Assembly: GCA_030583845.1 (NCBI GenBank)
Contig: CP129478.1
Coordinates: forward strand, 513,835-577,834
Reading direction: 5' to 3'
Source of the DNA: Candidatus Dojkabacteria bacterium
Lineage (GTDB): Bacteria > Patescibacteriota > Dojkabacteria > SC72 > JAHDCA01
Length of the DNA stretch: 64,000 bases
Within the stretch, counting starts at the first letter, position 1. Every line of letters begins with the position of its first letter. The translations under genes were made by a program, and so were the position numbers. This document shows, one piece after another, positions 25,379-40,287 of this stretch. The notes beneath the pieces are model-generated. The model saw only the letters and a program-made list of their open reading frames with translations. It did no database searches and had not been told where the DNA came from.

Positions 25379-28300
25379 ATGAAAGATTTAATGAAAAAGT
25401 TCAAAAATAGATTAAACAGGAAGCAAGAGCAGAAGCCGGTTAACCCGGCTGCAGAAAGCACTCCAAAAATCAGCACTGATAAAGCCGCACATGATGCAGA
25501 TAAGGCCGACTTCTCAAAGTTCACTGAGATACAGGATCAGATTGGAGATATGTTTGCTCCTATAAGATCACTTGAAGAGAGTGTCGACATGAAGTCGCTC
25601 GATCTGCGACTGGCGCAGAAGCTTGCTGCTGATTCATCTAAGAAAGAGCTGTCGGAGTCAATCAAAGAGCAGGCAGGCAAGGATACATCAAAGCCGCGTA
25701 TTTTCTCAAAGGAGGCATTCGCTTGGGCAGGTGGAAGCATTGCATCGTTACTAGCACTCACGATTGCTGTAATCTTCATCGTCCCACAGCTCATGGGTGA
25801 AAGCTCGCCATCCGATCTAGCAAACTCACAGCCTATTCCTGCGGTTCGCCTGCAGCCTGCCAACATTACATCGTCTGGCTACATTGCGACTCAAAATAGC
25901 TTCACGCTCGAGACAGAGAGCGCCATTACTAGCAACCTCAACGATGCCATAAAAGTGACCCCAGAGGTACCCTTCACCGCTACAGCAGAGGCCGATGGGG
26001 ATGGGTCGAAAATTACAGTTGAGATCGAGGATGAGCTGGCACGTGGTGCTGAATATACAATCGCACTTGTTGATGGTGTCACATTCGCTGATGGCTCACA
26101 GCTGCGCAAAGATATCGAGTGGGTGTTCAGGGTAGAGCCACTATTTGCGGTCATTGGTAGTACTCCTAGAGATAAGGCCAAAGAGGTTCCTGTGGATACT
26201 ACAATTGAATTTGAATTCAACCATAAGAATATTAGCGCCGAAGAATTGGCCAAGCATGTGAAAATTGCACCAGAGCTAACTGGTCGGTATGAGCAGATCG
26301 GCATGAAAGTTGTCTTTATCCCAAATGATAATCTCGCTCCAAATCACCTTTATGATGTCACAGTAAGCGGTGAATTTGCAAACGGTGACGGTGAGAAATT
26401 AGGTGAGGATTATAAGTTTAGCTTTGATACTGGATCCACCGACTCAAAGGGCAAATATATCGAGAGTGATATGGTGTCGTTCGGTTGGATAAGTAAGCCA
26501 GTAGAGAACGTAACAAATGGTGTTGATGTAAATCTGCGAACTTCGGGTGACTCTGCTTATCCTATCACTGTAAAGCTTTACTCTGTACCAGCAGAGAGTG
26601 CAGTTACACACATCACCAACTTAACTGGGGAGATTACCTCATTGCCAGATGGTATTCAGCTTATAGAGCAGAAGCAGTTAAACATCGACGACCCAAGATA
26701 TGTCAAAGCTCTGCCTAATCGTGGATTCTATATTGTCTCCGCAACAAATAAAGCTGGCACAACCACTGCGTATAAGTATTATGTTAAAACCGACCTCGGT
26801 ATTATCGCTACACAGTCCGATGGAAACCATGGCTACGTCTACAATATGGTTAATGAGACTCCTGCCGCAGAGGTAAGCATGGATGTTTATGATAGCGGTA
26901 AGAAAGTAGGGAGTGCGAAAACAAATGGTGAGGGCTTCTATTCGACCGACACGGATGGGAATGTAGTGATCGGTAAAGCTGGCGAGAGCTGGATTGTATT
27001 TTCCAGCAACGAGGGATGGTTAGACTACCCTGCATATGAGGGGATGCATGGAGGCTCTATTTTTAACCGCAATCATACATATCCGACATATCTGAGCACA
27101 GACAGGCCTCTATACAAGCCTGGGGATACAGTCAACTTCAGCGGGATCGTCCGAGAACAGTCGGGTGACACGCTCGCAATCCCGCAACCTCTCACTGTGA
27201 GGGTGGTTGCCGATGAAGCATACAGCTACATGTTTGATAGTGAGAATATTGGAGCAAGCACTCTACCAATCTTTGAAGGTGAATTCAAAACCACAAATGA
27301 ATTCGGAGTTGTTAATGGTAGCTTCACAATCCCTTATACACAGCAGCAAGCATATGTTGGAATTAGGATGTATGTAGAAGATGAGCAGATTGCAAGCACA
27401 GTTATTGATGTCTCTGAATACAGCAAGCCTGATCAGCAGTTTGTGGTGGAGTTTGAGAAACCAAAGTATTTCGCAGGCGAGCCAATCAAGGCTGTGGTTA
27501 CAGGTACCGACTATTCGGGCCAACCGCTCGCAGGCAAGACAGCAAGGCTGCGCCTCTACAAGGGCAATCCTTCGCCTACAATGATGCAATCAGATCATTA
27601 TGAGCAGTACGGATATATCGCATCACAGTTAGTTGAGGAAAAAAATGTGACATTAGATCAAGCTGGTAGGTACAGTTACAGTTTCACACATTTGAGGAAC
27701 AATGGTGACATGAACTTTACGGCATATCGAGTCGCACTTGTTACCGCTGATGCTGAGTATCAAGTGCTTTCACACAGCAGCGCTTTAGTCTCCGACTATG
27801 ACTACGATATTGAGATGACCACAGATTCAACTTCTATCTCAGTAGATGAAGGTCAAACTAAAGATGTAACTTTGAATTTCAAGTCGAAGAAGGTGTGGTC
27901 AGGAGATCCAATCGGCAACAAGTCATTTAATATCGCTGTAACAAGGCGCTGGACCGAATGGGTAGACACCGGCGAGGAGGAATACAATGAATACACAAAG
28001 AGCCATGTGCCTGTTTATAGGACTATTCAGCACACTGAAACTGTTCCTGGCTATGACCAGAGATATACAACTGATGGAAATGGCAATGTAAGCGTAGAAC
28101 TTAAAGATCTGAAGCACGGAAGCTACAGCATCGAGGTTAAATTCGAGCAGGCAGTAAAGGATTATGCGTATAACTTCTACATTTCCGAGTTGAGCAACGA
28201 AAGAAGGCAATATTACAACAATATTGAAGTTACACCGTCTGTCCTGCGAGCTAAGCCAGGAGAGAAGGTTAAAGTAGACATCTCAGTGCTCTCAGGAGGG

Positions 28301-29893
28301 AAGGGAGTATATATGGTTGCCTCATCCAATATAGACCAGCGAGGCAAGCTAGAATTACCAGCAAATGGTCAAAAAGAGATCGAGATCGAGATTAAAGAGA
28401 GCATGGCACCCTACCTTAGCATTTGCGCATATGTTATAGCTACACCGAGTGAAGCCGAACCGAATGGTGAGCGTGGTAAAGGCTGGTCGTATGGCTGTGG
28501 TACTCTCTCTGTAGATTCAGAAGCATATGATCTCGATGTGAAGATCGAGAGCAGCAAGGAAAGTTATAAGCCAGGTGAAGAAGCTGTGCTAAATATCACT
28601 ACAACAGATAGTGCTGGCAAGCCGGTTAGCAGCTCCGTCTCGGTTGCTGTCGTTGATAAAGCTCTCCTAGATCTGAAGAACAACAGCTTCGCCTATCCTG
28701 ACCTTGGGCAGCACTTTGAATCACGCAAGCGATACTTCACATTTGAATTAGGTAATCCTATGTATAACCAGGTCGATGACGGATCTGGAGCTGGTGGCGG
28801 TGGTGGTGATGGTACTTCGGCAAGAGATGATTTCCCTGATACAGCCTACTGGAATCCTACAGTTGTAACTGATGCCAATGGCCGTGCCACTGTGAAATTT
28901 ACATTGCCTGACAGCTTGACCACATGGTCGGTAGCTGGGTATGGCGCGAGCAAGGATAATGACTATGGCTACGGGAGTGACTTATTTACCAGCAGAATTG
29001 ACCAATTCTTAGACATTGAGGTGCCACAATTTATCCGCGATGGAGACAAGATGATAGTTAGAGTCGAAGCTGCAAATTTTGGCAGCGCAGTAAGTGGTAA
29101 GCTAAAATTTGATTGTGAGGGCTGCTCAGAAGGAGATAAGGAGATCGATGTGAATCTACCTGCAAATACACGCCAGGAGCATGAATTTACGATTGTACCC
29201 GCAGCCGGGGTTGAAGAGGCAAAATTGACCGCTGAGCTAGTACAGGGAGAGACCAAGCTTGATGCGATCAGATATACACTCCCAGTCTATACAGATGGCA
29301 TTATCTCGAATGAGCTGCATTCAGAGCTGCTCAAAACTGATGAAAACAGTGCCGAAATCAAGTTCGATCTTGAGTCAGTGCGCAAAGATGCCACAAAGGT
29401 AAACTTGGTCGTATCGAAGGCGTTCTCAATTGATAGCTTCAAATATGCTGTCGATCCCGGATTGAACTCAACACCTCAATTGGCTAGTGCGATCTTGCAC
29501 GATAATTTCATAGTAGAGCATTATGATGATCTGCAGCCAGACACACCGAAAGCCGAGCTTGAGAAGAAACTTGTTTACTATGCTGAACTGCTAAGCACCA
29601 ATCAGGCTGAGAATGGTGGGTTCGGATGGTTTAGCTATGACGCAGTATCGTTAGAATCATCAGTATTGGCTGCTGAAGCACTCGTAGCCGTGGAAGAGCT
29701 GAAGCCATTGCCACAAACGCAGAGGGGCTTGATGGCTAAATATTTCGCGCAGCATATTGTGTCAGATCATACATCAGTGCAGGATAAGATCTTGGCGTTC
29801 AAAGGCTTGGCCGCTGTCGACGCAGATAGTGCGACTTGTTTATTCCGAAGACATGAAAGAGCTTTTCCTAAGCAGCACCGAGGCTCAGTCTGA
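25379..29893 (+). CDS. giant cell-surface protein of the alpha-2-macroglobulin family (N-terminal cytoplasmic segment + single TM + tandem MG/Ig-like domains + A2M_comp-like region); frame is broken near the end and continues in 29757-30881
   Basis: TM helix GGSIASLLALTIAVIFIVPQL at about residue 120-140; repetitive beta-rich MG-like domains; LLSTNQAENGGFGWFS resembles the TED/A2M_comp signature; no CxEQ thioester seen. Confidence 0.55.
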   Translation: MKDLMKKFKNRLNRKQEQKPVNPAAESTPKISTDKAAHDADKADFSKFTEIQDQIGDMFAPIRSLEESVDMKSLDLRLAQKLAADSSKKELSESIKEQAGKDTSKPRIFSKEAFAWAGGSIASLLALTIAVIFIVPQLMGESSPSDLANSQPIPAVRLQPANITSSGYIATQNSFTLETESAITSNLNDAIKVTPEVPFTATAEADGDGSKITVEIEDELARGAEYTIALVDGVTFADGSQLRKDIEWVFRVEPLFAVIGSTPRDKAKEVPVDTTIEFEFNHKNISAEELAKHVKIAPELTGRYEQIGMKVVFIPNDNLAPNHLYDVTVSGEFANGDGEKLGEDYKFSFDTGSTDSKGKYIESDMVSFGWISKPVENVTNGVDVNLRTSGDSAYPITVKLYSVPAESAVTHITNLTGEITSLPDGIQLIEQKQLNIDDPRYVKALPNRGFYIVSATNKAGTTTAYKYYVKTDLGIIATQSDGNHGYVYNMVNETPAAEVSMDVYDSGKKVGSAKTNGEGFYSTDTDGNVVIGKAGESWIVFSSNEGWLDYPAYEGMHGGSIFNRNHTYPTYLSTDRPLYKPGDTVNFSGIVREQSGDTLAIPQPLTVRVVADEAYSYMFDSENIGASTLPIFEGEFKTTNEFGVVNGSFTIPYTQQQAYVGIRMYVEDEQIASTVIDVSEYSKPDQQFVVEFEKPKYFAGEPIKAVVTGTDYSGQPLAGKTARLRLYKGNPSPTMMQSDHYEQYGYIASQLVEEKNVTLDQAGRYSYSFTHLRNNGDMNFTAYRVALVTADAEYQVLSHSSALVSDYDYDIEMTTDSTSISVDEGQTKDVTLNFKSKKVWSGDPIGNKSFNIAVTRRWTEWVDTGEEEYNEYTKSHVPVYRTIQHTETVPGYDQRYTTDGNGNVSVELKDLKHGSYSIEVKFEQAVKDYAYNFYISELSNERRQYYNNIEVTPSVLRAKPGEKVKVDISVLSGGKGVYMVASSNIDQRGKLELPANGQKEIEIEIKESMAPYLSICAYVIATPSEAEPNGERGKGWSYGCGTLSVDSEAYDLDVKIESSKESYKPGEEAVLNITTTDSAGKPVSSSVSVAVVDKALLDLKNNSFAYPDLGQHFESRKRYFTFELGNPMYNQVDDGSGAGGGGGDGTSARDDFPDTAYWNPTVVTDANGRATVKFTLPDSLTTWSVAGYGASKDNDYGYGSDLFTSRIDQFLDIEVPQFIRDGDKMIVRVEAANFGSAVSGKLKFDCEGCSEGDKEIDVNLPANTRQEHEFTIVPAAGVEEAKLTAELVQGETKLDAIRYTLPVYTDGIISNELHSELLKTDENSAEIKFDLESVRKDATKVNLVVSKAFSIDSFKYAVDPGLNSTPQLASAILHDNFIVEHYDDLQPDTPKAELEKKLVYYAELLSTNQAENGGFGWFSYDAVSLESSVLAAEALVAVEELKPLPQTQRGLMAKYFAQHIVSDHTSVQDKILAFKGLAAVDADSATCLFRRHERAFPKQHRGSV

Positions 29894-30881
29894 TCCGTTG
29901 GCCATCGCTCTGTTCATGCAGGCATTTAATCAGATCGGCAATACCGGAGATTCAACATGGCTTTCTGGCTACCTGCCTAACTTGGCTGAAGAATCAGACA
30001 GAGGAATGTTCTGGGAGGATATCGAGAGCAACTTCAAGGTTATGGGAAGCTCAGACTATGTGACATCAGCAGCTTATCTGGCACTAGCACCGCTCGAATC
30101 ATGGGATACCAAATATAAAGTGCGAAACTGGCTGCTTGATCGAAACGTTAATAGCTACTATGGAGACAAGAACTCCGCGGCAATTATGTATGCATTGGCG
30201 GTGGCTGATTCCGAAAGTGTTGCTGACTTTGGTAAGGATAATAATCTAAAGCTATTTGTAAATGGCGAGGAAGTAGAGGATTTTGAGTTAACAGGTGATA
30301 GCCGCTATTCGAAAGTGGTTGCATCAATTGATTCGAAATATCTTGAGGAGGGCGAGAATGTGATTAAAATTGCTAGAAATGGCGAAGGTGAGCTATATCT
30401 GACCGCTAATGTGAAGAGTGTGACGGACGAGATCCCAGAATCGAAAGGCTTCACAATTAGTCGATCATTAACCGATCTGGATAGTGGTAAGCCGATTGCC
30501 GAGTCAGACTTGCAGGTTGCAGATGTAGTGAAGGTGACTGTTAAAGTGACTCCGGATGCTGATTATACAAATGTAGTGGTGCGTGACTTTGTGCCTTCAG
30601 GCACGGAGCCGTTGCGATTCAATCTAGCCGGTGTATCAATGGAGACGATGCGAAAATTCTGGCAGTACAATGGCGTCTCTGTTGATAGGAGTGGTGTTGC
30701 AGCCAAGGATTATGTAAGCTTCGGCACTGGCACAATGGAGAAGGGGAAAGAGTATAGCTATGAGTATCTGCTTGTTGTGGCAAATAAGGGGGAGCTAAGT
30801 GGTGGGTCAGCCAGCGTATTCTTGGAGATGTTTCCTGATATCGCTGGGTATGTTAGCACTGCGAAGGTAGTGATCGACTAG
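29757..30881 (+). CDS. C-terminal part of the alpha-2-macroglobulin-like protein in the +1 frame (frameshift relative to 25379-29893)
   Basis: NSYYGDKNSAAIMYALAVAD resembles the C3/A2M [23 protein letters not shown] segment; C-terminal beta-domain like the receptor-binding domain; frames overlap at 29757-29893. Confidence 0.5.
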   Translation: MCQIIHQCRIRSWRSKAWPLSTQIVRLVYSEDMKELFLSSTEAQSDPLAIALFMQAFNQIGNTGDSTWLSGYLPNLAEESDRGMFWEDIESNFKVMGSSDYVTSAAYLALAPLESWDTKYKVRNWLLDRNVNSYYGDKNSAAIMYALAVADSESVADFGKDNNLKLFVNGEEVEDFELTGDSRYSKVVASIDSKYLEEGENVIKIARNGEGELYLTANVKSVTDEIPESKGFTISRSLTDLDSGKPIAESDLQVADVVKVTVKVTPDADYTNVVVRDFVPSGTEPLRFNLAGVSMETMRKFWQYNGVSVDRSGVAAKDYVSFGTGTMEKGKEYSYEYLLVVANKGELSGGSASVFLEMFPDIAGYVSTAKVVID

Positions 30882-32119: not shown

Positions 32120-33406
32120 CTACCTGCCAAGTTTGAAACCTCTGCCCTTAATGGTTTTAATAGTTACTCCTTGAGGTAACTTCTTTCTTAGACGAGAAAT
32201 TGTCTGATCTATTGCCCAATCAGAATACTTCTCTATGGAACGTGATTTCCAAAGAATTTCGGCAACATCGTCTCTAGTGACAACTTTCCCATAGTTTTGG
32301 ACAAAGAGTGATAAAAGCTCAAACTCTCTCTCTGAAAGTTCGTCACCTATAGTCTCACCGTCGAAGTAGATGTTTCCATCACGTACCTCTGGGTCGCTCT
32401 TCGTATGGTTTGACTCTCCTTGGATGTCAGCATTTTCAACCTTAACCTCTGCTGAAGCAGCTGCCGGGTGAGTCTTTGAGTAGGCCCTGAGTATCGGTAT
32501 AGAGTCTGCATAACCACCATCTGCTGGCTTTATGATGAAACCTGCTTTAATCAGCTGGTCAAGTTCTGATGAGCCATCCTCCATATTTGAAGGTTCAGTC
32601 GTTGAGTAATATCTGTACAGATCAGAGCCCATTTCATCAACTAATCTCATTATCCTTGTTTTGATTGGTTCGTACTCGAGCAGGTTGTTTACCTCACACT
32701 CGCCATTCTCCAAGAGATATTGAACTGTATATTTGATAAAACTTGCATGCCCCCCGGCAATGCTATGAATATGTTTCTTCTCCTCCTTTGTCACCGGATA
32801 CTTATACCTCTTTGCTGCGGATTCAATAACCTCCTCAAAGTACTGGTAATCATCTACAGAAAGCCTGAGGACTAGAGCGTTCAAAACCTCTTCAAATGAT
32901 CCTACACACTCTCTCGTCAACTTTCTTAAAAGGTCGGTATTGCCTGTGAAGATATAGCCGATGCGATTGATATCTTGCTCTCGCAGACCTCTCAGACTCA
33001 TATAGAATTGTGGTCCAAGATGTGCGTATCTATCAATATTCGTCACAACGATGGTCACAGATTTCTCTTTATCTAGTAGATACTCGGAGATAATCTTGCT
33101 GGCTGCTTTATTTAGTTTGTACAAGTCCTTACTCAATAGAGCTTGGCTACTGTCTTCATAAGCAACGCCTAGCACGTCTAGCATGGTGCTAATCAATAGT
33201 CCGTAAAATGACTCAACAGTAATATCGATCAGCGCTGATGCTCTAACAAGTACAATCGCATTGTTTGGGTTAGTCTCTCGGTTCTCGTCATCGAGTTGCC
33301 TGAGGAAATCGCTTTTGCCGGAGCCGTTCATGCCGACAAGGGTAATATAGTTACCGTTGGGCAGGAGTGAAACGACTTGTTGCCTCAACTCTTTTCGAGT
33401 CTTCAT
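32120..33406 (-). CDS. AAA-type ATPase with C-terminal OmpR/PhoB-type winged-helix DNA-binding domain
   Basis: Walker A GMNGSGKS at N-terminus; C-terminal LSEREFELLSLFVQNYGKVVTRDDVAEILW...DQTISRLRKKL...IKTIKGRGFKL matches trans_reg_C. Confidence 0.55.
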   Translation of the reverse strand: MKTRKELRQQVVSLLPNGNYITLVGMNGSGKSDFLRQLDDENRETNPNNAIVLVRASALIDITVESFYGLLISTMLDVLGVAYEDSSQALLSKDLYKLNKAASKIISEYLLDKEKSVTIVVTNIDRYAHLGPQFYMSLRGLREQDINRIGYIFTGNTDLLRKLTRECVGSFEEVLNALVLRLSVDDYQYFEEVIESAAKRYKYPVTKEEKKHIHSIAGGHASFIKYTVQYLLENGECEVNNLLEYEPIKTRIMRLVDEMGSDLYRYYSTTEPSNMEDGSSELDQLIKAGFIIKPADGGYADSIPILRAYSKTHPAAASAEVKVENADIQGESNHTKSDPEVRDGNIYFDGETIGDELSEREFELLSLFVQNYGKVVTRDDVAEILWKSRSIEKYSDWAIDQTISRLRKKLPQGVTIKTIKGRGFKLGR

Positions 33407-33556: not shown

Positions 33557-35092
33557 GTGAAATTTAACGCCATGAACCACCAAGACCAATTCCTAAACAA
33601 CTCAAATCTGGCACCAGGGCAAAGTGTCGGGAGCATATCAGCTCAGCCTGCAGTGGTAACGCCGCCAGTAGCTCAGCCTGCAGTGGTAACGCCGCCAGTA
33701 GCGCAGCCTGCTCCAGTAACTCCACTACCCGTTGATCAGCCAGCTGTCTCAGAAGAGCTAGCTGCAGCTGTTCAAAGCTCTCCAGCCGCACCCGATCCGA
33801 TTAAGATCGCCGAGGCTACAACTTCTGCAATCAGTACGACTGAAGCATTAAATGATTCAAACATAGCTGTAGATAGCAGCACGCCAATCGTTGAGCAAGC
33901 TCCACCGAAAGCAAAAGCAAGTCCATCTACCGACAGCGAGGTAATTGAAGAGATAGAAGAGCTAGAGCAGAAAGTTAATAGCTCGCAGATGCCAGAGGAG
34001 CTTCGGGAAAAAGCCTTACGATCAATCGAGAGATTGTATCGCATGGCGAAGCGAGGAAGCTACACAGGTGAATTTGAGACGGTAGAGAAATATATCTATT
34101 GGATTACAAGCATCCCGTGGGGGACATACACTGAAGATAGGCTTGATGTCGCGAACGCTAAGGGGATCATGGACAAGACACACTACGGTATGGATACAGT
34201 CAAAAATTTGGTACTCGATTATCTGGCTGTGATGCAGCTCAAGAATAGTGCGATTGCTGCGCAAGGCCAGAATTCAGCTCAGCCGACTGTCACGCCTGGT
34301 GCTGCATCAGCCTCTGTCACACCTGTAGCCCCGGAGATGGCTATCCTTCGAGGATCATCCGCAAACGCCCCTGTGATGCTATTCGTCGGATTGCAGGGTG
34401 TTGGTAAGACCTCGATTGCCAAGTCGATCGCTATGGCGATGGGGAGAGATTTCACAAGGGTCGCGCTTGGGGCCATCGGCAGTGTGCAAGCATTGCGTGG
34501 GCAGTCTAAGGCATTTCTCGATGCTGAGCCAGGACAGGTGGTGAAAGCATTGATCCGCACCAAGAGCATGAACCCGGTCATCCTACTAGACGAGATAGAT
34601 AAGGCAAGCGGCCAGAGTGGATTGCTCAACGATATTATGGCAGCGTTGTTGGAGATACTTGACCCAGAGCAGAACAGCGCCTTTATCGACCATTACATTG
34701 ATCACCCGATCGATCTATCGAAAGTATTTTTCATCTGTACGGCGAACAACCTGGGGACATTGTCTGCAGCACTTCTAGACCGCATGGAGGTTATCCGCTT
34801 TACCAGCTACAACGACGAAGAGAAGACAACAATCGCCAAGAATTTCTCATTCCCGAAGGTGATAGAGAATACTGGACTCCGACCAGATCAGATAGTGATC
34901 GAAGAAAATGTATGGCCACTACTTGTACGCCCTGTTGGCTTCGATGCAGGACTGCGCCAGCTTGAGAGAAATCTCGCGACTATGGTGCGCGCAGTCGCCA
35001 GGAAGATAGTTGAGGGTGCACCAGCTCCTATTGTTATAACGACTGAAAATCTAAAAGAATTTGTATTGCCTGACCAAGGGCCGTTAAGCTAG
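33557..35092 (+). CDS. Lon-like AAA+ protein lacking LON-N and S16 protease domains, with Pro-rich tandem-repeat N-terminus
   Basis: Collinear with the Lon ATPase module: YIYWITSIPWG, GLQGVGKTSIAKSIA (Walker A), ILLDEIDKA (Walker B), EILDPEQNSAF, LLDRMEVIR (sensor 2); the ORF ends after the AAA alpha-domain. Confidence 0.6.
   Translation: MKFNAMNHQDQFLNNSNLAPGQSVGSISAQPAVVTPPVAQPAVVTPPVAQPAPVTPLPVDQPAVSEELAAAVQSSPAAPDPIKIAEATTSAISTTEALNDSNIAVDSSTPIVEQAPPKAKASPSTDSEVIEEIEELEQKVNSSQMPEELREKALRSIERLYRMAKRGSYTGEFETVEKYIYWITSIPWGTYTEDRLDVANAKGIMDKTHYGMDTVKNLVLDYLAVMQLKNSAIAAQGQNSAQPTVTPGAASASVTPVAPEMAILRGSSANAPVMLFVGLQGVGKTSIAKSIAMAMGRDFTRVALGAIGSVQALRGQSKAFLDAEPGQVVKALIRTKSMNPVILLDEIDKASGQSGLLNDIMAALLEILDPEQNSAFIDHYIDHPIDLSKVFFICTANNLGTLSAALLDRMEVIRFTSYNDEEKTTIAKNFSFPKVIENTGLRPDQIVIEENVWPLLVRPVGFDAGLRQLERNLATMVRAVARKIVEGAPAPIVITTENLKEFVLPDQGPLS
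33641..33730 (+). repeat. 30-bp tandem repeat (2 perfect + 1 diverged copy) encoding AQPAVVTPPV repeats
   Basis: GCTCAGCCTGCAGTGGTAACGCCGCCAGTA x2 exact at 33641-33700, third copy diverged. Confidence 0.7.
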
Positions 35093-35138: not shown

Positions 35139-35801
35139 ATGGGATCAAAAGGGATCAAACGCAGATATAGAAAAGCTACGATTTTTGTAACAGCTTTAAG
35201 CCTTGTGGTATCAGCACTTCTATTCGCAGGGTCGGTGAGAAGCGGCTACCCGTCGATAAGCAGTAGAGAGAGCTTACCTTCAGAGCCTGTCGCTCAGAAA
35301 CCATATATTCCGCAGCATATATATGCTGTACCCGCATCGAACGAAGTATTGTCACAGCAGGACTCGTTAAAGCTTATCTGGCCTGTGGAACGTGGCCTCG
35401 GAAAAATAACCCAATGCGTTTCGGCTGCTCACAACGGTATCGATATAGCGCATCCAGGATATCCAGATGTAATAGCTGCACATCGCGGTAAAGTGACCTT
35501 TGCCGGTTGCGAGCCGAGAAACTGCCCGCCCGACGGTGAAGAGCAGGGTGGCGAAGGGTTAGCTAGGAGTGTGATAATCGAGCACGAATCAGGCTTATCA
35601 ACGGTATATGGTCACCTTAACGAAGTTTATGTAAAAACTGGATTCTTTGTCGAGGCTGGCACCTCAATCGGTCAGATGGGTCGAACAGGCAAGACGAACG
35701 GTGGTGTACACTTGCACTTTATGTTGGCGGAATGGGGGAAGAACAAAGTGTACAATCCTGCGAAATTTATGGACCCGATTGAGTGTCCGGATGGGGATTA
35801 G
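35139..35801 (+). CDS. M23-family metallopeptidase (LytM domain)
   Basis: HNGIDIA (HxxxD), GLSTVYGHLNEV, GRTGKTNGGVHLHF (HxH) motifs; N-terminal TM anchor. Confidence 0.8.
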   Translation: MGSKGIKRRYRKATIFVTALSLVVSALLFAGSVRSGYPSISSRESLPSEPVAQKPYIPQHIYAVPASNEVLSQQDSLKLIWPVERGLGKITQCVSAAHNGIDIAHPGYPDVIAAHRGKVTFAGCEPRNCPPDGEEQGGEGLARSVIIEHESGLSTVYGHLNEVYVKTGFFVEAGTSIGQMGRTGKTNGGVHLHFMLAEWGKNKVYNPAKFMDPIECPDGD

Positions 35802-35840: not shown

Positions 35841-36131
35841 CTACGCTCCTCTGAATGGGTTTCTGACTTTTAACGCCAAATCCTCTTGCTTCTTCTGCTG
35901 GCTTTCTGTTGTGGCGTTTATAGTTGCCCCGCCGCTATATGGAGCGCCGATCTTTCTCTCAAAAGCCATGAGTTTATCGTAGTCGGATTGTTCTTTCGTT
36001 TGAGCAATGCTTTGGGTTGTGCCACCTGCCGTGGGTGTTGTGGCTTGGTTGTTTTGCGCAGCTGGTTGTGCGACTGGCTGGTCAGCTTGAGTCGTGCCTG
36101 GCTTGCTTTTGAAAATGTTGAAGATGCCCAA
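35841..36131 (-). CDS. hypothetical small Q/T/A-rich protein downstream of virB4-like gene
   Basis: 96 aa ORF, low complexity. Confidence 0.3.
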   Translation of the reverse strand: MGIFNIFKSKPGTTQADQPVAQPAAQNNQATTPTAGGTTQSIAQTKEQSDYDKLMAFERKIGAPYSGGATINATTESQQKKQEDLALKVRNPFRGA

Positions 36132-36148
36132 AGCTCTTTATGGCAAAT

Positions 36149-38638
36149 TTATTGGACTGGGTTGGTTGGCTCCTCGGGACTCCCAAAATCTGGAGATTCA
36201 TATCCTGGCTGGGCTGGCTGACTTGGTGGTGGAGTCGGAGCTGTTGATTCAACAGGAACCGTGCCTCCAACAATGCCCTGTGAAGTGATATGTGACCTAC
36301 CTTTTTGCAATGCATCTCTTTCCGCGCTTACCATGTCTGACATAGATGCGTATGTTTCGGCAATGCCATCACCATCCATATCCACCATGCCTTGAGTGTT
36401 TACATCCGATTGTGGTACAGCATGATACTTCAGCCTATCCTCAATCATCTGGTCAACCTGCTCCTTGCGGCTCTGGACTGCACGGCTGATTACATTTGTT
36501 TTGTCCCTGCGGACGCGATCTTTGATTGGATCTTGGACTGCTGGCGGGTCATACATCATCGCAAGCTCCTCGAGCGGGCGTTGTTTCTTAATGCCTTGTG
36601 CTTCTTCGGCACGCATTCTCTCGAGGTCTTTCGGATCGGAGGTAATAAGCTCATGCTCGGCTTGGCTGGATACCACCTGGATAGCCACATGGTTTGCTCC
36701 AGCGAAGAATAAGCCCTGACCCTTGTCGGCAGTTAATAGATACTGTTTCTCACCTTCTGATAAGTTGAAAGTGCCAGTGAGCCGGTCAATCGCAGCTGGG
36801 CTCTGCTTCATCAAGAATTGGATCGAAGAGTTAGTAATAATAGCGCGTCCCATATCATTCTTAAGGAAATCATCAACATCTTGAGTGATTGTCGTGAGTC
36901 CGAGGTAATATTTACGTGCTCGTTTCGCCATGCCGTACAAGAATTTGGCTGAGTCCTCATTTTGCATCATGTACCACGCCTCATCCACGATCAAGATCCG
37001 TCGCTTCATGTCACGTCGAATTCTGGTCCAGATATAGTCCAGCATCAGATACATAACCATCGGACGGAGCTCGTCGGCCATATCACGGATGCTAAATACT
37101 GTGAACGGATTATTAATTTCGACCGTGCTCCGTTCATTGAACACGCCCTTGGCTGAGCCGATGATATATCGTTCGAGGCGGCTTGCCATGCTTCGCGCTT
37201 CAGGCTCTGCCATGCCTTTCAATACCTTGTACAGGTCCTCAAGCAGAGGGTAATCGGCGTTTCGCTGGGTCGCAGGATCGAGTGTGATCCCTTTCTCGCG
37301 ATAGGTCAGGATTAAGGCACGATCCAAGATTGCAATTTCAATAGGGTTCAACTGTCCCATCATTAGCCTGAAGAAGCCCTGTAATGAGAGCATCTTAATC
37401 CTCAACTCATCTTCATCTTGCCCAAGTCCTGACAGCTCAAATGGATTCATCTTGTCGCCTTTATCTTGTGAGAATGAGATATATGCACCGCCAACAGCTT
37501 GGCACAGTCTCTCGTACTCTTTCTCAGGGTCGATAATTATCAATTCTGTCCCAAACATCAGGCTTCTCACCGCTTCCAGCTTCACGAAGTAGCTCTTACC
37601 AGCACCCGACCTGGCAAATACAACTGTATTTGCATTCTCCATATCGAATCGGTCAAAGATAACCAAGCTTCGGTTATGCTGGTTGATCCCATACATGATC
37701 CCATGATCCATGGTGAGCTCCGAGGTGACAAATGGGAATGTAGTAGCCAACGATGTCGTATCCATATTTCGGGTAATAAACATCTTGTCCAAGCCGAGCG
37801 GCTGTGTGCTGATCAGTCCTTGCTCCTGCTGGAGAACCGCTGGCTTTGCAGTCACATTCATCGAGGCTAAAGTCGATGTCACATTCTTGCCGATCTTTTC
37901 GAGCTCATCCTTGTCTTTTGATTGAATGGTGACATACATCCCGAAGTGGAAGAATTTCTCGGTGCCCTCTGCGATCGAGTCTTGAAGCTGCTGAGCGTCG
38001 GTTAGGGCTACTTTGAGCGTGGGATCGACGGCTTTGCGGCCTTCCATCTGCGAGTACAACGTTGCCTCCATCTCACCGATCTTGCGCTTTAACTTTTGCA
38101 AAATCACCTTCGAATCTACTGGGTAATAGAAAGTGCTGATATAGAGCGAATGCTCGAAGTTAATTATAGGCGAGAGCCAGTTCGGCCCGACAAAACGTGG
38201 ATAGCCCTGCGGGCTAACAAAATATGTCTGGAAGTACCAGTCGCCAATCTTCAGGTGGTTAAAATCTACCTCCATGTCGATTGGGGCGATAAGGTCTTCG
38301 ATTGTAAGCCCTTCGATTTTTCGCCCATCTACCGCTTGCTCTTCTGCGGCTATCTGTTCCTCATCATTCTTCGGCGCGTAGTTTTTACCGATAACGGGGA
38401 GATAGGCGAGGAAGTTTTGGAGTGGGCTACGTTTCTTGATTACTGTTGGGTCATATCGCTCTTTATCTTCGAGCTCTTTGGTTTTGAGGCGATCCTCTTT
38501 GACCTGTCGCTGGAAATCATTGATCTTCTTTCCTGGGTCGAGTGTCTCATTTCGCTTATCGATCATCTGCTGAGTCTTAGACTGGTGAGTCTTAGTGAAG
38601 CGGTTTGGATCTTTTTCAAATGGTTGTGTGGTGCTCAT
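36149..38638 (-). CDS. type IV secretion ATPase VirB4 family (Gram-positive TcpF/PrgJ/TrsE type)
   Basis: N-domain LKIGDWYFQTYFVSPQGYPRFVGPNWL...SLYISTFYYPVD; Walker A FARSGAGKSYF; IIIDPEKEY; Walker B ILIVDEAWYMM; 829 aa. Confidence 0.75.
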   Translation of the reverse strand: MSTTQPFEKDPNRFTKTHQSKTQQMIDKRNETLDPGKKINDFQRQVKEDRLKTKELEDKERYDPTVIKKRSPLQNFLAYLPVIGKNYAPKNDEEQIAAEEQAVDGRKIEGLTIEDLIAPIDMEVDFNHLKIGDWYFQTYFVSPQGYPRFVGPNWLSPIINFEHSLYISTFYYPVDSKVILQKLKRKIGEMEATLYSQMEGRKAVDPTLKVALTDAQQLQDSIAEGTEKFFHFGMYVTIQSKDKDELEKIGKNVTSTLASMNVTAKPAVLQQEQGLISTQPLGLDKMFITRNMDTTSLATTFPFVTSELTMDHGIMYGINQHNRSLVIFDRFDMENANTVVFARSGAGKSYFVKLEAVRSLMFGTELIIIDPEKEYERLCQAVGGAYISFSQDKGDKMNPFELSGLGQDEDELRIKMLSLQGFFRLMMGQLNPIEIAILDRALILTYREKGITLDPATQRNADYPLLEDLYKVLKGMAEPEARSMASRLERYIIGSAKGVFNERSTVEINNPFTVFSIRDMADELRPMVMYLMLDYIWTRIRRDMKRRILIVDEAWYMMQNEDSAKFLYGMAKRARKYYLGLTTITQDVDDFLKNDMGRAIITNSSIQFLMKQSPAAIDRLTGTFNLSEGEKQYLLTADKGQGLFFAGANHVAIQVVSSQAEHELITSDPKDLERMRAEEAQGIKKQRPLEELAMMYDPPAVQDPIKDRVRRDKTNVISRAVQSRKEQVDQMIEDRLKYHAVPQSDVNTQGMVDMDGDGIAETYASMSDMVSAERDALQKGRSHITSQGIVGGTVPVESTAPTPPPSQPAQPGYESPDFGSPEEPTNPVQ

Positions 38639-39261
38639 ACTTCTGGTGTGTATACTTCATAAAATAGCTGAATCAGCTCGTTATTTTCAAGCTGGTGCCC
38701 CATTAGTCCCATCCGGCCAAGCTGCTTAAGAATATGGTCGCGCTTCGGGTAGAGGTAGATTCGCCCCTGTTCAGCTACCTGTAATTTATGCTTTTCAGAC
38801 AATATGCTGTTTGCGGCAGCTTTCTGCTTTTTCAGCTTAGCTCCAGCCAGTGGGTTTGCTGGATTGTAGGGGACGACCAGGTAAAATTTCTTATCCAGCA
38901 CATCATTAGTGACGATTAGGTTCTGAACGAAAGAGGTGTAGACAGTGAGTTGGGTCCTTAAGCCTTCAGACATTGGGCGTGAGAGCTGCTGATTGAGGTA
39001 GTCGATATAGTTGGCAATATCGATTCGTTGGGTCTTGATCAAGATCTGAATATGGAAGTTGAGCGAATTTAGGAGACCAGCAAAGGCGTAGATCTTGCTG
39101 TCTTGCTCATACTCTGAAAGTAGGTCGAAGTTAACTGCGTTGGTCTGGATGACAAGTGATACACTGCCGCTTTTGGTGATTACTAAATCGTCAATTACAT
39201 CGAGTATCTCTAGGTGATCTTGTGTCGATGGTTTGATTTTGCTTCTAACTTTCGGGTCCAA
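38635..39261 (-). CDS. hypothetical protein resembling the CagE/TrbE/VirB4 N-terminal region (possible separate N-domain component)
   Basis: LVITKSGSVSLVIQTNAVNFDLLSEYEQDS...LLNSLNFHIQILIKTQR resembles the opening of PF03135-type VirB4 N-termini; ATGA overlap with virB4 start/stop suggests translational coupling. Confidence 0.4.
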   Translation of the reverse strand: MDPKVRSKIKPSTQDHLEILDVIDDLVITKSGSVSLVIQTNAVNFDLLSEYEQDSKIYAFAGLLNSLNFHIQILIKTQRIDIANYIDYLNQQLSRPMSEGLRTQLTVYTSFVQNLIVTNDVLDKKFYLVVPYNPANPLAGAKLKKQKAAANSILSEKHKLQVAEQGRIYLYPKRDHILKQLGRMGLMGHQLENNELIQLFYEVYTPEV

Positions 39262-39279
39262 ATTGGGCAGATCAATAAA

Positions 39280-40287
39280 CTAATTTAAAGGGGTCACTAA
39301 AATTGGTGGATATATACCTTGCTCAATTACATAGTGAAGTCTTGGGAAATTATACTGGCCGTACTCTATGTCTACAAGGTACTCACCTGGCTTAAGCGGC
39401 TTTGCATTTACTAGGTTGCCGGCTCCATCTGTCTGATACACCTGCAATATGTTTTCTGAGGTATCTCTAAGCATTACCATAGCGCGGTGAAGTGGCTGCG
39501 AGCTGTCCTGGAGGTGGAGGTAGATCGTGTTTGGGTGTAGCTCCAAGCCCTCAATACTGTACTGGAATTGGGAGATGTTCTCCTTGGTAATTGTTACACG
39601 AGGTCGAGCCGGGAGCGGTGTTACCTGGTGTACCATCTGTGGCTGCTCAACTGCGGGTTGCTCGGGCTGTGCTGGTGCGGTACTCTCAGGCACTGCTGTG
39701 CCTTCCTGTTGCATCGGTTGTGGCTGTGGCATACTGCTCTGCATGCTGACCTGTGTTGAAGCAATATTTTCAATCTCCGCCAGCCTCTGCTCCTCCTCCA
39801 TGTCGAGAGCCTGGGTCACCTGAGAGCTTTGCATGAATTGATTTGACCCCATCTCACTTGGATCAACTCCACCTATGATCTTACTCTTCTGGTTCTTGGA
39901 AGATGCTGGGAGTTCATTACGCGACATCTCGCCCTGTGTCATTACTAGTCCGCGCTGCTCAGCAATCCCTTCTACCTTCCGGTCAAACTGCTCATTGCGC
40001 CATACTCGCCTGGTTGGTCGAGTAATTGCTGCAATATAGTTGGTAAGGAATGTATCGGCTTTCTGCTCATTTATTGGCACCAATCCGAGGAATAGCCCTA
40101 TTGCTGAAGAGATCAAGAAGATTGGGACAGCAATGAAGTATGTGAGCTCTCCACGAGTGGCAAAGTAGAGAAAAATCCCACCAAAGCCTATCCCTGCGGC
40201 CATATAGATAAATTCACGAACTGTAAATTTCGTAAAAAGCTTAAACTCTACGTCCAATATATTTTGTGGTATCGGATGCTGCTTCAT
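39280..40287 (-). CDS. PrgI/VirB3-like T4SS membrane protein with extended Q/P-rich linker and C-terminal domain
   Basis: KLFTKFTVREFIYMAAGIGFGGIFLYF + second TM helix matches the PrgI-family N-terminus; heads the virB4 operon. Confidence 0.5.
   Translation of the reverse strand: MKQHPIPQNILDVEFKLFTKFTVREFIYMAAGIGFGGIFLYFATRGELTYFIAVPIFLISSAIGLFLGLVPINEQKADTFLTNYIAAITRPTRRVWRNEQFDRKVEGIAEQRGLVMTQGEMSRNELPASSKNQKSKIIGGVDPSEMGSNQFMQSSQVTQALDMEEEQRLAEIENIASTQVSMQSSMPQPQPMQQEGTAVPESTAPAQPEQPAVEQPQMVHQVTPLPARPRVTITKENISQFQYSIEGLELHPNTIYLHLQDSSQPLHRAMVMLRDTSENILQVYQTDGAGNLVNAKPLKPGEYLVDIEYGQYNFPRLHYVIEQGIYPPILVTPLN

What the first reader, a model, noticed from the sequence alone, without database searches (positions are those of the whole stretch)
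33557..35092. Protease-less Lon homolog with degenerate ATPase motifs and proline-rich tandem-repeat N-terminus
The protein is collinear with the Lon AAA+ module, including the exact sensor-2 block LLDRMEVIR and EILDPEQN. It lacks the LON-N and S16 peptidase domains, however. Its Walker A is GLQGVGKT rather than GPPGVGKT, and the conserved Arg-rich stretch after Walker A is replaced. The N-terminus carries 30-bp tandem repeats encoding AQPAVVTPPV. It may be a non-proteolytic Lon-derived chaperone or adaptor, or a pseudoenzyme.
Basis: partly seen in the sequence, partly recalled or inferred. Interest (0 to 1): 0.5.

Follow-up and report, generated by a model that had tools for sequence, protein, structure and literature searches.

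The report
Protease-less Lon-type ATPase of Patescibacteria
This gene encodes the ATP-driven motor of the Lon protease without its protein-cutting domain; the same shortened form is conserved across many tiny-genome (CPR/Patescibacteria) bacteria, so it is a working and probably non-proteolytic machine, not a broken gene.

Summary
The ORF is real (33557..35092; the true start is probably ATG 33569, giving 506 aa). It consists of a disordered N-terminal tail, the LonA helical bundle, a Lon AAA+ module with Lon-type lid, and a 10-residue tail. No LON-N or S16 peptidase domain is encoded here or anywhere in the window. This is not a truncation artefact. More than 120 orthologue clusters (Ca. Dojkabacteria) end in the same FVLPDQGPLS. 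Thirty-nine Patescibacteria MAG loci carry short (348-472 aa) relatives, and these form one clan apart from full-length LonA (200/200 bootstraps). "Degenerate ATPase motifs" is wrong: Walker A (GLQGVGKT), Walker B, sensor-1, Arg finger and sensor-2 are invariant in 120/120. The part that has changed is pore loop 1. It is Lon's most conserved substrate-gripping loop (Tyr in 51/51 LonA), yet it is the most variable segment of the core in this clan. The best reading is an active LonA-derived AAA+ ATPase that no longer feeds a protease, i.e. a remodeller or chaperone. A separately encoded peptidase partner is not excluded. I found no description of it in the searchable literature, and databases label it "AAA family ATPase" or, wrongly, "Lon protease". 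Verdict: new variant of a known kind, moderate to high interest.

The parts
33557..35092 (+). Whole ORF for the protease-less LonA-type AAA+ ATPase (511 aa from GTG 33557; the probable true start is ATG 33569, giving 506 aa; stop TAG 35090-35092).
   Evidence: ORF list and sequence. It is identical to NCBI protein P0001, 'AAA family ATPase [Ca. Dojkabacteria]', 506 aa. Orthologues start MNHQ/MNH...
33557..33943 (+). N-terminal low-complexity, predicted disordered tail (aa 1-129).
   Evidence: No Pfam or NCBIfam match. Among 120 orthologues the tail is 11-264 aa (median 42) and rich in N/S/T/Q/P.
33640..33720 (+). 30-bp tandem repeat, 2.4-2.7 copies, encoding AQPAVVTPPV twice plus the diverged copy AQPAPVTPLPV.
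   Evidence: Tandem Repeats Finder score 137, 97% matches. The first two copies are identical in DNA. The 76%-identical orthologue P0002 lacks it, and P0007 carries a different repeat unit.
33803..33853 (+). Short conserved motif inside the disordered tail (aa 83-99, KIAEATTSAISTTEALN). Family pattern: K[VI]x[DE]GNT[TS]A[LIM][KT]T[ST][DE][AT]L.
   Evidence: A regular-expression search finds it in at least 30 of 120 orthologues, with looser copies in others. AF2 does not dock it onto the folded part (pLDDT below 50). Its function is unknown.
33944..34249 (+). LonA N-terminal helical region: the C-terminal part of the coiled-coil/HI(CC) domain, the three-helix bundle and helix alpha0 (aa 130-231).
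   Evidence: It aligns to B. subtilis LonA residues 9-105 of the 3m6a construct and to LONP1 and to TIGR00763 from model position 252. AF2 predicts helices with pLDDT 84-97.
34250..34342 (+). Variable disordered linker between alpha0 and beta1 (aa 232-262), followed by the family-specific conserved block MAxLRGSSANAP.
   Evidence: The linker is 5-100 aa in orthologues and has pLDDT below 50 in AF2 (model residues 117-145). The block is conserved in the family but gapped in 35 of 40 LonA sequences.
34376..34804 (+). AAA+ alpha/beta (nucleotide-binding) domain (aa 274-416).
   Evidence: Pfam AAA 1.6e-21. It is 44% identical to the AAA module of a full-length LonA. Foldseek TM 0.75-0.80 to LONP1/LonA chains.
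34388..34414 (+). Walker A, GLQGVGKTS (aa 278-286). LonA has GPPGVGKTS.
   Evidence: Invariant in 120/120 orthologues. All 37 short Patescibacteria relatives have G[LVI][QVAP]G.GKT and never GPPG.
34496..34534 (+). Pore loop 1, RGQSKAFLDAEPG (aa 314-326). LonA has RGHRRTY[IV]GA[LM]PG.
   Evidence: The Lon Tyr column reads F80/E14/L9 in 120 orthologues. In the wider clan it is E9/F6/N4/... against Y in 51/51 LonA. This is the most variable 7-residue window of the core (rank 1 of 142), whereas in LonA it ranks 135 of 142.
34580..34603 (+). Walker B, ILLDEIDK (aa 342-349), followed by pore loop 2 with a 2-residue insertion (ASGQSGLLND).
   Evidence: D345 and E346 are invariant in 120/120. G352, L356/L357 and D359 are nearly invariant.
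34736..34789 (+). Sensor-1 (CTANN, N397) and arginine finger (LLDRME, R409).
   Evidence: N397 and R409 are invariant in 120/120. Residue roles follow the EcLon N473/R484 assignments in PMC6722904.
34865..35020 (+). Lon-type lid (small helical) domain (aa 437-488), with sensor-2 R467 in GLRQLER and the family signature W453...RPVGFDAG.
   Evidence: Pfam Lon_lid 1.6e-8. R467 and W453 are invariant in 120/120.
35060..35089 (+). Conserved C-terminal tail, FVLPDQGPLS-COOH (aa 502-511).
   Evidence: All 120 orthologues end in ..DQG[PSI][LMI][STN]; 92 have exactly FVLPDQGPLS. The last residues have pLDDT below 50. Other subgroups end ..DIG[VI]YS or ..FLPQW.
35139..35801 (+). Context only: a downstream Peptidase_M23 gene on the same strand, 46 nt after the stop, with a hydrophobic N-terminal segment. 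It is not a Lon peptidase.
   Evidence: Pfam Peptidase_M23 2.3e-21. Among related loci it is adjacent only in L004.
35841..40287 (-). Context only: a convergent T4SS-like operon (96-aa ORF, VirB4/TraG-P-loop ATPase, TraC-like, PrgI). It is a conserved tail-to-tail neighbour of the group-A gene. No functional link has been shown.
   Evidence: Pfam. The same arrangement occurs in 20 of 20 group-A loci with enough flank, with a median gap of 262 bp. It is absent next to more distant family members.

Best explanation
The gene encodes a catalytically competent, stand-alone AAA+ ATPase that descends from LonA and has lost both the N-terminal substrate-binding (LON-N) domain and the S16 peptidase domain.

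Shown: the domain content, the intact and strongly conserved ATP-binding and hydrolysis residues, the Lon fold, and a single clan of such proteins across Patescibacteria.

Inferred: like the equivalent LonA fragment, it assembles into a ring or spiral hexamer through its helical bundle and AAA+ module, with the Arg finger acting in trans, and it hydrolyses ATP. There is no proteolytic chamber, and the Tyr-bearing pore loop 1 used for processive threading is no longer constrained. It therefore most likely works as an ATP-dependent protein remodeller or chaperone (binding, partial unfolding, disassembly or release of particular clients), not as a degradation motor.

Candidate client or partner contact sites, untested: the hypervariable disordered N-tail with its embedded short motif, the clade-specific pore loop, and the invariant C-terminal tail.
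For: Domain content: AAA plus Lon_lid only. The Lon equivalog model is matched only over positions 252-568 and scores below cut-off. No Lon_C or LON-N coding potential appears in any frame of the window or in 720 kb flanking 47 related loci.

Not an artefact: the 120 best orthologue clusters (374-632 aa) all lack Lon_C and end in the same decapeptide. Thirty-nine GTDB Patescibacteria loci carry 348-472 aa versions.

Active enzyme: Walker A, Walker B, sensor-1, Arg finger, sensor-2 and the adenine-stacking Tyr418 are invariant in 120/120, and the catalytic motifs are kept in nearly all of the wider clan. Mean core entropy resembles that of LonA (1.04 vs 0.95 bits).

Lon fold: AF2 pLDDT 83.6; Foldseek TM 0.75-0.80 to LONP1/LonA. 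The equivalent EcLon(235-584) fragment packs as a helical hexamer in crystals (PMC6722904).

Changed substrate handling: pore loop 1 is the most variable segment in the clan (rank 1 of 142, 2.49 bits) and among the most conserved in LonA (rank 135 of 142, 0.26 bits, Tyr 51/51).

Single origin: the clan separates from 51 LonA sequences and 2 tandem-Lon modules in 200/200 NJ bootstraps.

No operon partner: the neighbours differ between subgroups.
Against: No experiment exists; hexamer formation, ATPase activity and chaperone activity are all inferred. In LonA the protease ring contributes to hexamer stability (my own knowledge, not checked here), so a P-domain-less protein may need another partner to assemble.

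This particular protein, and two thirds of its closest orthologues, still carry an aromatic-hydrophobic pair (F320-L321) at the Tyr position, so threading is not excluded for them.

An invariant C-terminal tail is what one would expect of a docking element for a separate partner, possibly a peptidase.

I could not see the other ~970 kb of the genome, so a canonical Lon or a stand-alone Lon_C elsewhere is not excluded.

NJ clustering of fast-evolving sequences can be inflated by long-branch attraction.
Confidence: 0.5

Rival explanations
1. It is the ATPase half of a two-component protease. The hexamer would dock through its conserved C-terminal tails onto a separately encoded peptidase ring and feed it substrates, as HslU does with HslV (C-terminal tails), ClpX with ClpP (IGF loops) and proteasomal ATPases with the 20S core (C-terminal HbYX).
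For: The C-terminal decapeptide is essentially invariant in 120/120 orthologues and is predicted unstructured. Subgroup B ends in ..G[VI]YS, which is hydrophobic-Tyr-X at the very C-terminus and resembles the HbYX docking motif; that resemblance rests on my own knowledge and was not tested. This protein keeps F-L at the pore-loop Tyr position.
Against: tblastn finds no Lon_C, ClpP or HslV gene in the window or within 10 kb of the gene in 47 Patescibacteria loci. Pore loop 1 loses its aromatic residue in most subgroups and is the least constrained part of the core, which is hard to reconcile with processive translocation. The tail differs between subgroups (DQGPLS, DIGVYS, FLPQW).
Confidence: 0.2
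2. It is a dedicated accessory ATPase of the Patescibacteria T4SS-like apparatus. It might unfold or hand over secretion substrates, or assemble and disassemble the machine.
For: In group A the gene lies tail-to-tail with the PrgI/TraC-like/VirB4 operon in 20 of 20 loci with enough flank (median gap 262 bp), although its upstream neighbour varies. In the window and in L004 it is followed on the same strand by an M23 peptidase. M23-type wall hydrolases occur in monoderm conjugation systems (my own knowledge).
Against: The orientation is convergent, so the genes are not co-transcribed. The adjacency is absent in groups B and C and in the other short relatives. A published survey of virB4 neighbourhoods in Patescibacteria does not mention a Lon or AAA protein. 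The synteny may simply be inherited within one class.
Confidence: 0.12
3. It is a pseudoenzyme, a decaying remnant or an assembly/annotation artefact of a normal lon gene.
For: Walker A departs from the Lon consensus (LQ for PP), the pore-loop sequence is replaced, and two domains are missing.
Against: All catalytic residues are invariant across 120 orthologue clusters drawn from many independent assemblies. The stop position and tail are conserved. Core conservation equals that of LonA. LQ itself is invariant, i.e. selected. There are two in-frame stops and then an unrelated gene 46 nt downstream.
Confidence: 0.04
4. It is a nucleic-acid-directed motor or regulator that exploits the DNA-binding capacity reported for the LonA AAA+ region.
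For: A basic residue (K/R318) is kept in pore loop 1. The PDB entry for the E. coli fragment is titled 'DNA-binding ATP-dependent protease La'. Nearby genes include a UvrD/PD-(D/E)XK helicase-nuclease and the T4SS-like cluster.
Against: The pore-loop end is made acidic in the family (D322 in 114/120 and E324 in 120/120, replacing Lon's G and M/L), which is unfavourable for a phosphate backbone. No DNA-binding domain is detected.
Confidence: 0.05

Closest known systems
LonA (endopeptidase La; B. subtilis LonA 3m6a, E. coli Lon, human LONP1)
   Same: Both have the helical bundle, the AAA+ alpha/beta domain and the Lon-specific lid. Identity over the AAA+ module is about 44-47%. The signature blocks EILDPEQN and LLDRME and all ATPase catalytic residues are shared. 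Foldseek TM is 0.75-0.80.
   Different: It has no LON-N domain and no S16 Ser-Lys peptidase domain, and it scores below the TIGR00763 cut-off. Walker A reads LQ instead of PP. Pore loop 1 (GHRRTY[IV]GAMPG) is replaced and variable. It has a variable insertion between alpha0 and beta1, a 2-residue insertion in pore loop 2, and a conserved C-terminal tail.
Engineered E. coli Lon fragment 235-584 (PDB 6n2i)
   Same: It has almost the same boundaries as the folded part of this protein: three-helix bundle, NB domain and H domain. Foldseek TMt is 0.87. The fragment crystallises as an open helical hexamer with ADP bound (PMC6722904).
   Different: That fragment is a laboratory truncation of a protease. 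This protein is a natural, conserved gene product with its own family-specific conserved blocks and tail.
LonC of Meiothermus taiwanensis ('A Lon-like protease with no ATP-powered unfolding activity', PMC3391209)
   Same: It is a natural Lon relative in which the ATPase and protease functions have been uncoupled (title and abstract seen).
   Different: It is the mirror image: LonC keeps the protease and has lost ATPase function, whereas this protein keeps the ATPase and has lost the protease.
Free-standing AAA+ partners of separate peptidases (HslU, ClpX) and proteasomal ATPases
   Same: These are single-ring AAA+ proteins without their own peptidase domain. They use a loop or a C-terminal tail for docking, and this family has a comparable invariant C-terminal tail. 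This comparison rests on my own knowledge.
   Different: Those proteins all keep an aromatic pore loop 1 (GYVG, or K[YF][VIL]G), and their peptidase partner is known. Here the loop is unconstrained and no partner is found nearby.
Non-proteolytic AAA+ relatives of protease motors (ClpB/Hsp104 versus ClpA; protease-dead FtsH-like proteins of plastids)
   Same: The evolutionary theme is the same: a protease-coupled unfoldase turned into a non-degrading remodeller. This rests on my own knowledge and is an analogy only.
   Different: They belong to different AAA+ lineages. ClpB keeps its pore-loop tyrosines and has two rings and an M-domain. I am not aware of a described LonA-lineage example.

Membership tests
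LonA protease (endopeptidase La, MEROPS S16, TIGR00763) | C-terminal S16 peptidase domain with the Ser-Lys dyad (Pfam Lon_C, PF05362) | tested here: not met
   Pfam gives no hit at E<=1. tblastn with four Lon_C probes (three from full-length or tandem Lons, one E. coli sequence written from memory) finds nothing in the window. The ORF stops 10 residues after the lid, with TAG AAG TAA.
LonA protease (endopeptidase La, MEROPS S16, TIGR00763) | N-terminal LON substrate-binding domain (PF02190) | tested here: not met
   No Pfam hit. The N-terminus is a low-complexity tail, and a LON-N tblastn probe finds nothing.
LonA protease (endopeptidase La, MEROPS S16, TIGR00763) | Score above the curated equivalog cut-off | tested here: not met
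   TIGR00763 scores 334.5 bits against a 608.05 cut-off; NF008053 scores 232.9 against 891.
LonA protease (endopeptidase La, MEROPS S16, TIGR00763) | Lon-type AAA+ module: helical bundle, NB domain and Lon lid, with Walker A/B, sensor-1, Arg finger and sensor-2 | tested here: met
   Pfam AAA plus Lon_lid. PDB phmmer hits are all LonA/LONP1. The residues are invariant in 120/120. The fold matches.
LonA protease (endopeptidase La, MEROPS S16, TIGR00763) | Pore-loop-1 tyrosine (EcLon Y398) in GHRRTY[IV]G | tested here: not met
   This protein has Phe. The column reads F80/E14/L9 in orthologues and is mostly non-aromatic in the wider clan, against Tyr in 51/51 LonA.
AAA+ ATPase superfamily (P-loop, additional strand, catalytic Glu) | Walker A GxxxxGK[ST], Walker B hhhhDE, sensor-1 polar residue, trans-acting Arg finger, lid with sensor-2 | tested here: met
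   The motifs are GLQGVGKT, ILLDEIDK, N397, R409 and R467. Pfam AAA scores 77.5 bits against a 21.2 cut-off.
AAA+ ATPase superfamily (P-loop, additional strand, catalytic Glu) | Hexameric ring or spiral assembly and ATP hydrolysis | not testable with these tools
   Only monomer prediction was available. Assembly is inferred from the conserved Arg finger and from the hexameric packing of the equivalent EcLon fragment.
Two-component AAA+ proteases (HslUV, ClpXP type) | A cognate compartmental peptidase gene in the genome, usually adjacent | tested here: inconclusive
   No ClpP, HslV or Lon_C is found in the 64-kb window or within 10 kb in 47 related loci. The remainder of the genomes could not be searched.
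Lon-like proteins of phage-defence systems (e.g. BrxL) | Match to a defence-system profile and a defence-gene neighbourhood | tested here: not met
   PADLOC gives only weak generic AAA matches (best DolB, 2.4e-11, over the P-loop region), and none of the neighbours hits a defence model meaningfully.

The most novel reading that the evidence does not exclude
Patescibacteria (CPR) as a group may have converted their Lon into a non-proteolytic AAA+ machine. Its substrate-contacting pore loop, freed from the generic threading role, would diversify clade by clade to handle specific clients. Alternatively, it may dock by its invariant, in some clades HbYX-like, C-terminal tail onto a so far unrecognised partner ring. 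Either case would be a previously undescribed class within the Lon lineage, and these reduced genomes would lack classical Lon proteolysis altogether.
Probability: 0.25. Interest if true: 0.75.

Novelty: new variant of a known kind. Interest (0 to 1): 0.6.

Why it matters
Lon is one of the most conserved bacterial proteases. In another genome-reduced bacterium, Mycoplasma pneumoniae, it is one of only two essential ATP-dependent proteases (PMC7737663, abstract seen). A whole radiation of ultrasmall bacteria keeps only Lon's motor under strong selection, while letting its substrate-gripping loop drift. That is a natural experiment on what a Lon ATPase does without proteolysis, which bears on the long-discussed protease-independent 'chaperone' activity of Lon.

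It also affects annotation. JGI and UniProt call these proteins 'ATP-dependent Lon protease' or 'Lon protease', so metabolic and proteostasis reconstructions of CPR genomes may wrongly credit them with Lon proteolysis.

If a trans-acting partner exists, the conserved C-terminal tail gives a direct handle for finding it.

Tried and rejected
1. Sequencing-error or truncation hypothesis. Rejected: two in-frame stops, an unrelated gene 46 nt downstream, no Lon_C in any frame, and an identical C-terminus in 120 orthologue clusters.

2. Adjacent split protease gene. tblastn with Lon_C, LON-N, ClpP and HslV probes against the window plus 720 kb of flanks from 47 loci gave no hits. This is adequate for a homology probe but is not a curated sequence.

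3. Conserved operon partner. None: the neighbours differ among subgroups. Only the tail-to-tail T4SS adjacency holds, and only within group A.

4. Defence-system membership. PADLOC was negative.

5. Mobile-element or phage origin. tblastn against phage records gave only ordinary Lon-like hits at 33-37% identity.

6. Intramolecular docking of the N-tail motif. The second AF2 model left it at pLDDT below 50.

7. Promoter and terminator scan. The counts were no higher than in shuffled sequence, and no promoter-like site lies on the gene's own strand.

8. Literature. No paper combines 'Lon protease' with Dojkabacteria, Patescibacteria or candidate phyla radiation, and no paper describes a protease-less LonA. 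The Patescibacteria T4SS paper and the Southlakia genetics paper do not mention Lon or AAA.

9. Naming the nearest full-length Lons to look for a Patescibacteria Lon. The cluster names were uninformative: Clostridiales, Ktedonobacterales or unnamed.

10. A Foldseek search of AFDB50 was unavailable. A first Biopython tree run timed out and was replaced by a numpy NJ implementation.
Full report
**1. What is in the sequence**

An uninterrupted ORF runs 33557..35092 on the + strand, 511 aa from a GTG. NCBI's model for the identical protein (P0001, 'AAA family ATPase [Candidatus Dojkabacteria bacterium]', on a 1,036,382-bp contig) starts at the ATG at 33569 (506 aa). Close orthologues also begin MNHQ/MNH, so 33569 is the likelier start.

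Pfam finds an AAA domain (aa 274-416, 1.6e-21) and the Lon-specific lid (aa 437-488, 1.6e-8). It finds neither Lon_C nor the LON N-terminal domain. The NCBIfam Lon equivalog TIGR00763 is the best family hit, but it scores 334.5 bits against a 608 cut-off and matches only model positions 252-568 of 795. By phmmer, the best solved-structure matches are all LonA or mitochondrial LONP1 (B. subtilis 3m6a, 2.5e-72). They align in two stretches: aa 132-231 (the helical region before the ATPase) and aa 264-503 (the AAA+ module).

The frame ends TAG AAG TAA. After 46 nt an M23 peptidase gene begins. tblastn with Lon_C and LON-N probes finds nothing in any frame of the 64-kb window.

The 30-bp repeat at 33640-33720 is real: 2.4-2.7 copies, TRF score 137, and two copies identical in DNA.

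- LLDRMEVIR is the Arg-finger block (EcLon R484), not sensor-2 (EcLon R542, here the R of GLRQLER), by the assignments in PMC6722904.
- The 'Arg-rich stretch' is pore loop 1.
- GLQGVGKT is a perfectly good P-loop.

**2. It is a family, not an accident**

The protein search returned 7,836 hits. The 120 best clusters are 374-632 aa, 57-100% identical, and nearly all that carry a name are from Ca. Dojkabacteria/WS6. Every one carries only AAA-type domains, nearly all with Lon_lid as well, and none has Lon_C. All 120 end in the same C-terminal decapeptide; 92 have exactly FVLPDQGPLS. Stop-codon position and tail are thus conserved across many independent assemblies.

In the 1.84-billion-protein representative library, the closest full-length Lons are only about 40-46% identical. 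The better-scoring hits are either further short Dojkabacteria proteins (P0122, P0141 and others) or Lons with tandem AAA+ modules.

A scan of GTDB species genomes gave 39 loci in Patescibacteria MAGs whose ORFs are 348-472 aa (one is cut by a contig end). They fall into subgroups.
- Group A ends ..DQGPLS (Dojkabacteria-type).
- Group B ends ..DIG[VI]YS, ..GTLS or ..GIVS.
- Group C ends ..FLPQW (Shapirobacteria-type).
- A few others do not fit these groups.

Below roughly 40% identity the hits I examined are ordinary 787-881 aa LonA from Acidobacteriota, Chloroflexota and other phyla.

In a neighbour-joining analysis of 331 columns, the 37 short Patescibacteria proteins form one clan apart from 51 LonA sequences and 2 tandem-Lon modules, in 200/200 bootstraps. 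The tree has no outgroup and long-branch effects are possible. One MAG (JAFGIK01) carries two paralogues.

**3. Which residues are kept and which are not**

I aligned 120 orthologues against 40 LonA sequences.
- Walker A GLQGVGKTS is invariant. LQ replaces Lon's PP in every member, so it is a selected signature and not decay.
- Walker B D345/E346, sensor-1 N397, Arg finger R409 and sensor-2 R467 are each present in 120/120.
- Tyr418, which corresponds by alignment to EcLon Tyr493 (the residue that contacts the adenine), is also present in 120/120.

These catalytic residues persist in nearly all of the wider clan.

Pore loop 1 behaves differently. In LonA it reads GHRRTY[IV]GA[LM]PG, with Tyr in 51/51 sequences. 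In the window protein it reads GQSKAFLDAEPG. At the Tyr column the orthologues have F80/E14/L9, and the wider clan is mostly non-aromatic (E9, F6, N4, ...).

Quantitatively, this 7-residue window is the most variable of 142 windows in the AAA+ core of the clan (2.49 bits). In LonA it ranks 135th of 142 (0.26 bits). Mean core entropy is nevertheless alike (1.04 vs 0.95 bits).

The family also has its own conserved blocks:
- MAxLRGSSANAP before strand beta1;
- DAEPG closing pore loop 1, which is acidic where Lon has G and M/L;
- a 2-residue insertion in pore loop 2 (SGNSGLLND);
- W453 and RPVGFDAG in the lid;
- the C-terminal tail.

**4. Structure**

AlphaFold2 with a 67-sequence alignment gives pLDDT 83.6 and pTM 0.78 for aa 125-511. 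The alpha0-beta1 linker and the last three residues are disordered. Foldseek's top 50 PDB matches are all LonA/LONP1 chains (TM 0.72-0.80). They include the engineered EcLon 235-584 fragment (TMt 0.87), whose boundaries almost coincide with the folded part of this protein. That fragment packs as an open helical hexamer with ADP bound (PMC6722904).

**5. N-terminal tail**

Among orthologues the tail before the first conserved helix is 11-264 aa (median 42) and rich in N, S, T, Q and P. The proline-rich repeat in the window is a recent local expansion. P0007 has a different repeat (ANPTQ-type), and the 76%-identical P0002 has none.

A short motif is embedded in the tail (window aa 83-99, KIAEATTSAISTTEALN). 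Its family pattern is K[VI]x[DE]GNT[TS]A[LIM][KT]T[ST][DE][AT]L, and it recurs in at least 30 of 120 orthologues. A second AF2 run did not dock it onto the folded body.

**6. Context**

The upstream gene is divergent and encodes a protein with a P-loop-like N-terminal motif (seen by eye, not a Pfam hit) and an OmpR-type winged helix (Pfam Trans_reg_C). Downstream on the same strand lies an M23 peptidase with a hydrophobic N-terminal segment. Beyond it is a convergent T4SS-like operon: a small ORF, a VirB4-like ATPase, a TraC-like gene and PrgI.

The tail-to-tail adjacency to the VirB4 operon holds in 20 of 20 group-A loci with enough flank, with a median gap of 262 bp, while the upstream neighbour varies. 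It is absent for groups B and C and for the other short relatives. A published survey of virB4 neighbourhoods does not mention such a gene.

No Lon_C, LON-N, ClpP or HslV coding potential lies within 10 kb in 47 Patescibacteria loci, 720 kb in total. PADLOC and phage searches were uninformative.

**7. Interpretation**

Shown: a LonA-derived AAA+ protein without LON-N and peptidase domains, under strong purifying selection on every ATP-hydrolysis residue, forming one clan across Patescibacteria, with its pore loop 1 released from the constraint seen in all LonA.

Inferred (confidence about 0.5): it assembles as a hexamer and hydrolyses ATP but no longer threads substrates processively into a chamber. 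It would act as a remodeller or chaperone for particular clients, with the N-tail motif, the clade-specific pore loop and the C-tail as candidate contact sites.

The main rival (about 0.2) is a two-component protease in which the invariant C-terminal tail docks onto a separately encoded peptidase. The tail favours this reading; in group B it even looks like hydrophobic-Tyr-X. The unconstrained pore loop and the lack of any nearby peptidase argue against it.

A T4SS-accessory role (about 0.12) rests only on clade-limited convergent synteny. A nucleic-acid role (about 0.05) is disfavoured by the acidic pore-loop end. Pseudoenzyme or artefact (about 0.04) is contradicted by the conservation pattern.

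**8. Limits**

No oligomer prediction or experiment was possible.

**9. Novelty**

Searches of the held literature found no description of a natural protease-less LonA and nothing linking Lon to CPR lineages. Databases label the proteins 'AAA family ATPase' or, misleadingly, 'ATP-dependent Lon protease'. The nearest described relative in spirit is LonC, which keeps the protease and has lost ATPase function (PMC3391209), the mirror image of this case.

I rate it a new variant of a known kind, with interest 0.6.

Noticed in passing
not in the window; proteins P0121, P0123, P0124, P0125, P0128, P0131, P0132, P0135, P0139, P0142: These are Lon proteins with two or three tandem Lon-type AAA+ modules followed by a single Lon_C domain. 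Lon_lid was seen in the two of the three scanned where Pfam listed it. Examples: P0121, 1113 aa, Ca. Dependentiae, three modules; P0124, 997 aa, two modules that both carry the RKTYIGAMPG pore loop. They may be 'double-ring' Lons. I do not know whether they have been described.
   Followed up: partly
window 25379..29893 (+) and 29757..30881 (+): A 1504-aa alpha-2-macroglobulin-like ORF (Big_5, MG2, A2M_BRD, A2M) overlaps by about 135 nt a 374-aa ORF carrying the bacterial A2M MG10 domain. This looks like one A2M gene split by a frameshift, or a genuine two-gene arrangement.
   Followed up: no
window 35841..40287 (-); loci L001, L002, L004, L009-L022, L024, L025: A T4SS-like cluster (small ORF, VirB4-like, TraC-like, PrgI) lies tail-to-tail with the Lon-like gene in all 20 group-A loci with enough flank (median gap 262 bp), although the gene on the other side varies.
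   Followed up: partly
window 33803..33853 (aa 83-99): A short conserved linear motif (KIAEATTSAISTTEALN; family pattern K[VI]x[DE]GNT[TS]A[LIM][KT]T[ST][DE][AT]L) sits inside an otherwise hypervariable disordered tail. It is present in at least 30 of 120 orthologues. Its role is unknown.
   Followed up: partly
L035 (JAFGIK010000072.1) and L007 (JAFGIK010000020.1): One Dojkabacteria MAG (GCA_016929645.1) carries two protease-less Lon-like paralogues. One is 409 aa and ends ..GIGTLS. The other is a divergent 548-aa form (P0141) with a long S/N-rich C-terminal extension and the Walker A sequence GVQGAGKT.
   Followed up: no
L040, L041, L042, L044, L046: MAG records titled 'uncultured Gammaproteobacteria bacterium' carry group-C proteins that are near-identical in motifs, length and C-terminus to the one in a Ca. 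Shapirobacteria MAG (L043). The NCBI organism labels of these bulk-submitted MAGs are probably wrong. The same may apply to several group-A loci labelled 'Saccharibacteria'.
   Followed up: no
window 32120..33406 (-): A divergently transcribed 428-aa protein has a P-loop-like N-terminus (NGSGKS, seen by eye) and a C-terminal OmpR-type winged-helix domain (Pfam Trans_reg_C). It is separated from the Lon-like gene by 150 nt. A weak relative (27% identity) lies about 4 kb upstream of the gene in L009.
   Followed up: no
window 50763..53435 (+) and 54713..57313 (+): An 890-aa ORF has no Pfam match at all, and a nearby 866-aa ORF has only a HerA/DUF87-type ATPase core.
   Followed up: no
database records for P0005, P0013, P0016, P0032 and others: JGI and UniProt/NCBI names for members of this family include 'ATP-dependent Lon protease' and 'Lon protease', although no peptidase domain is present. 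This is a propagating mis-annotation.
   Followed up: yes
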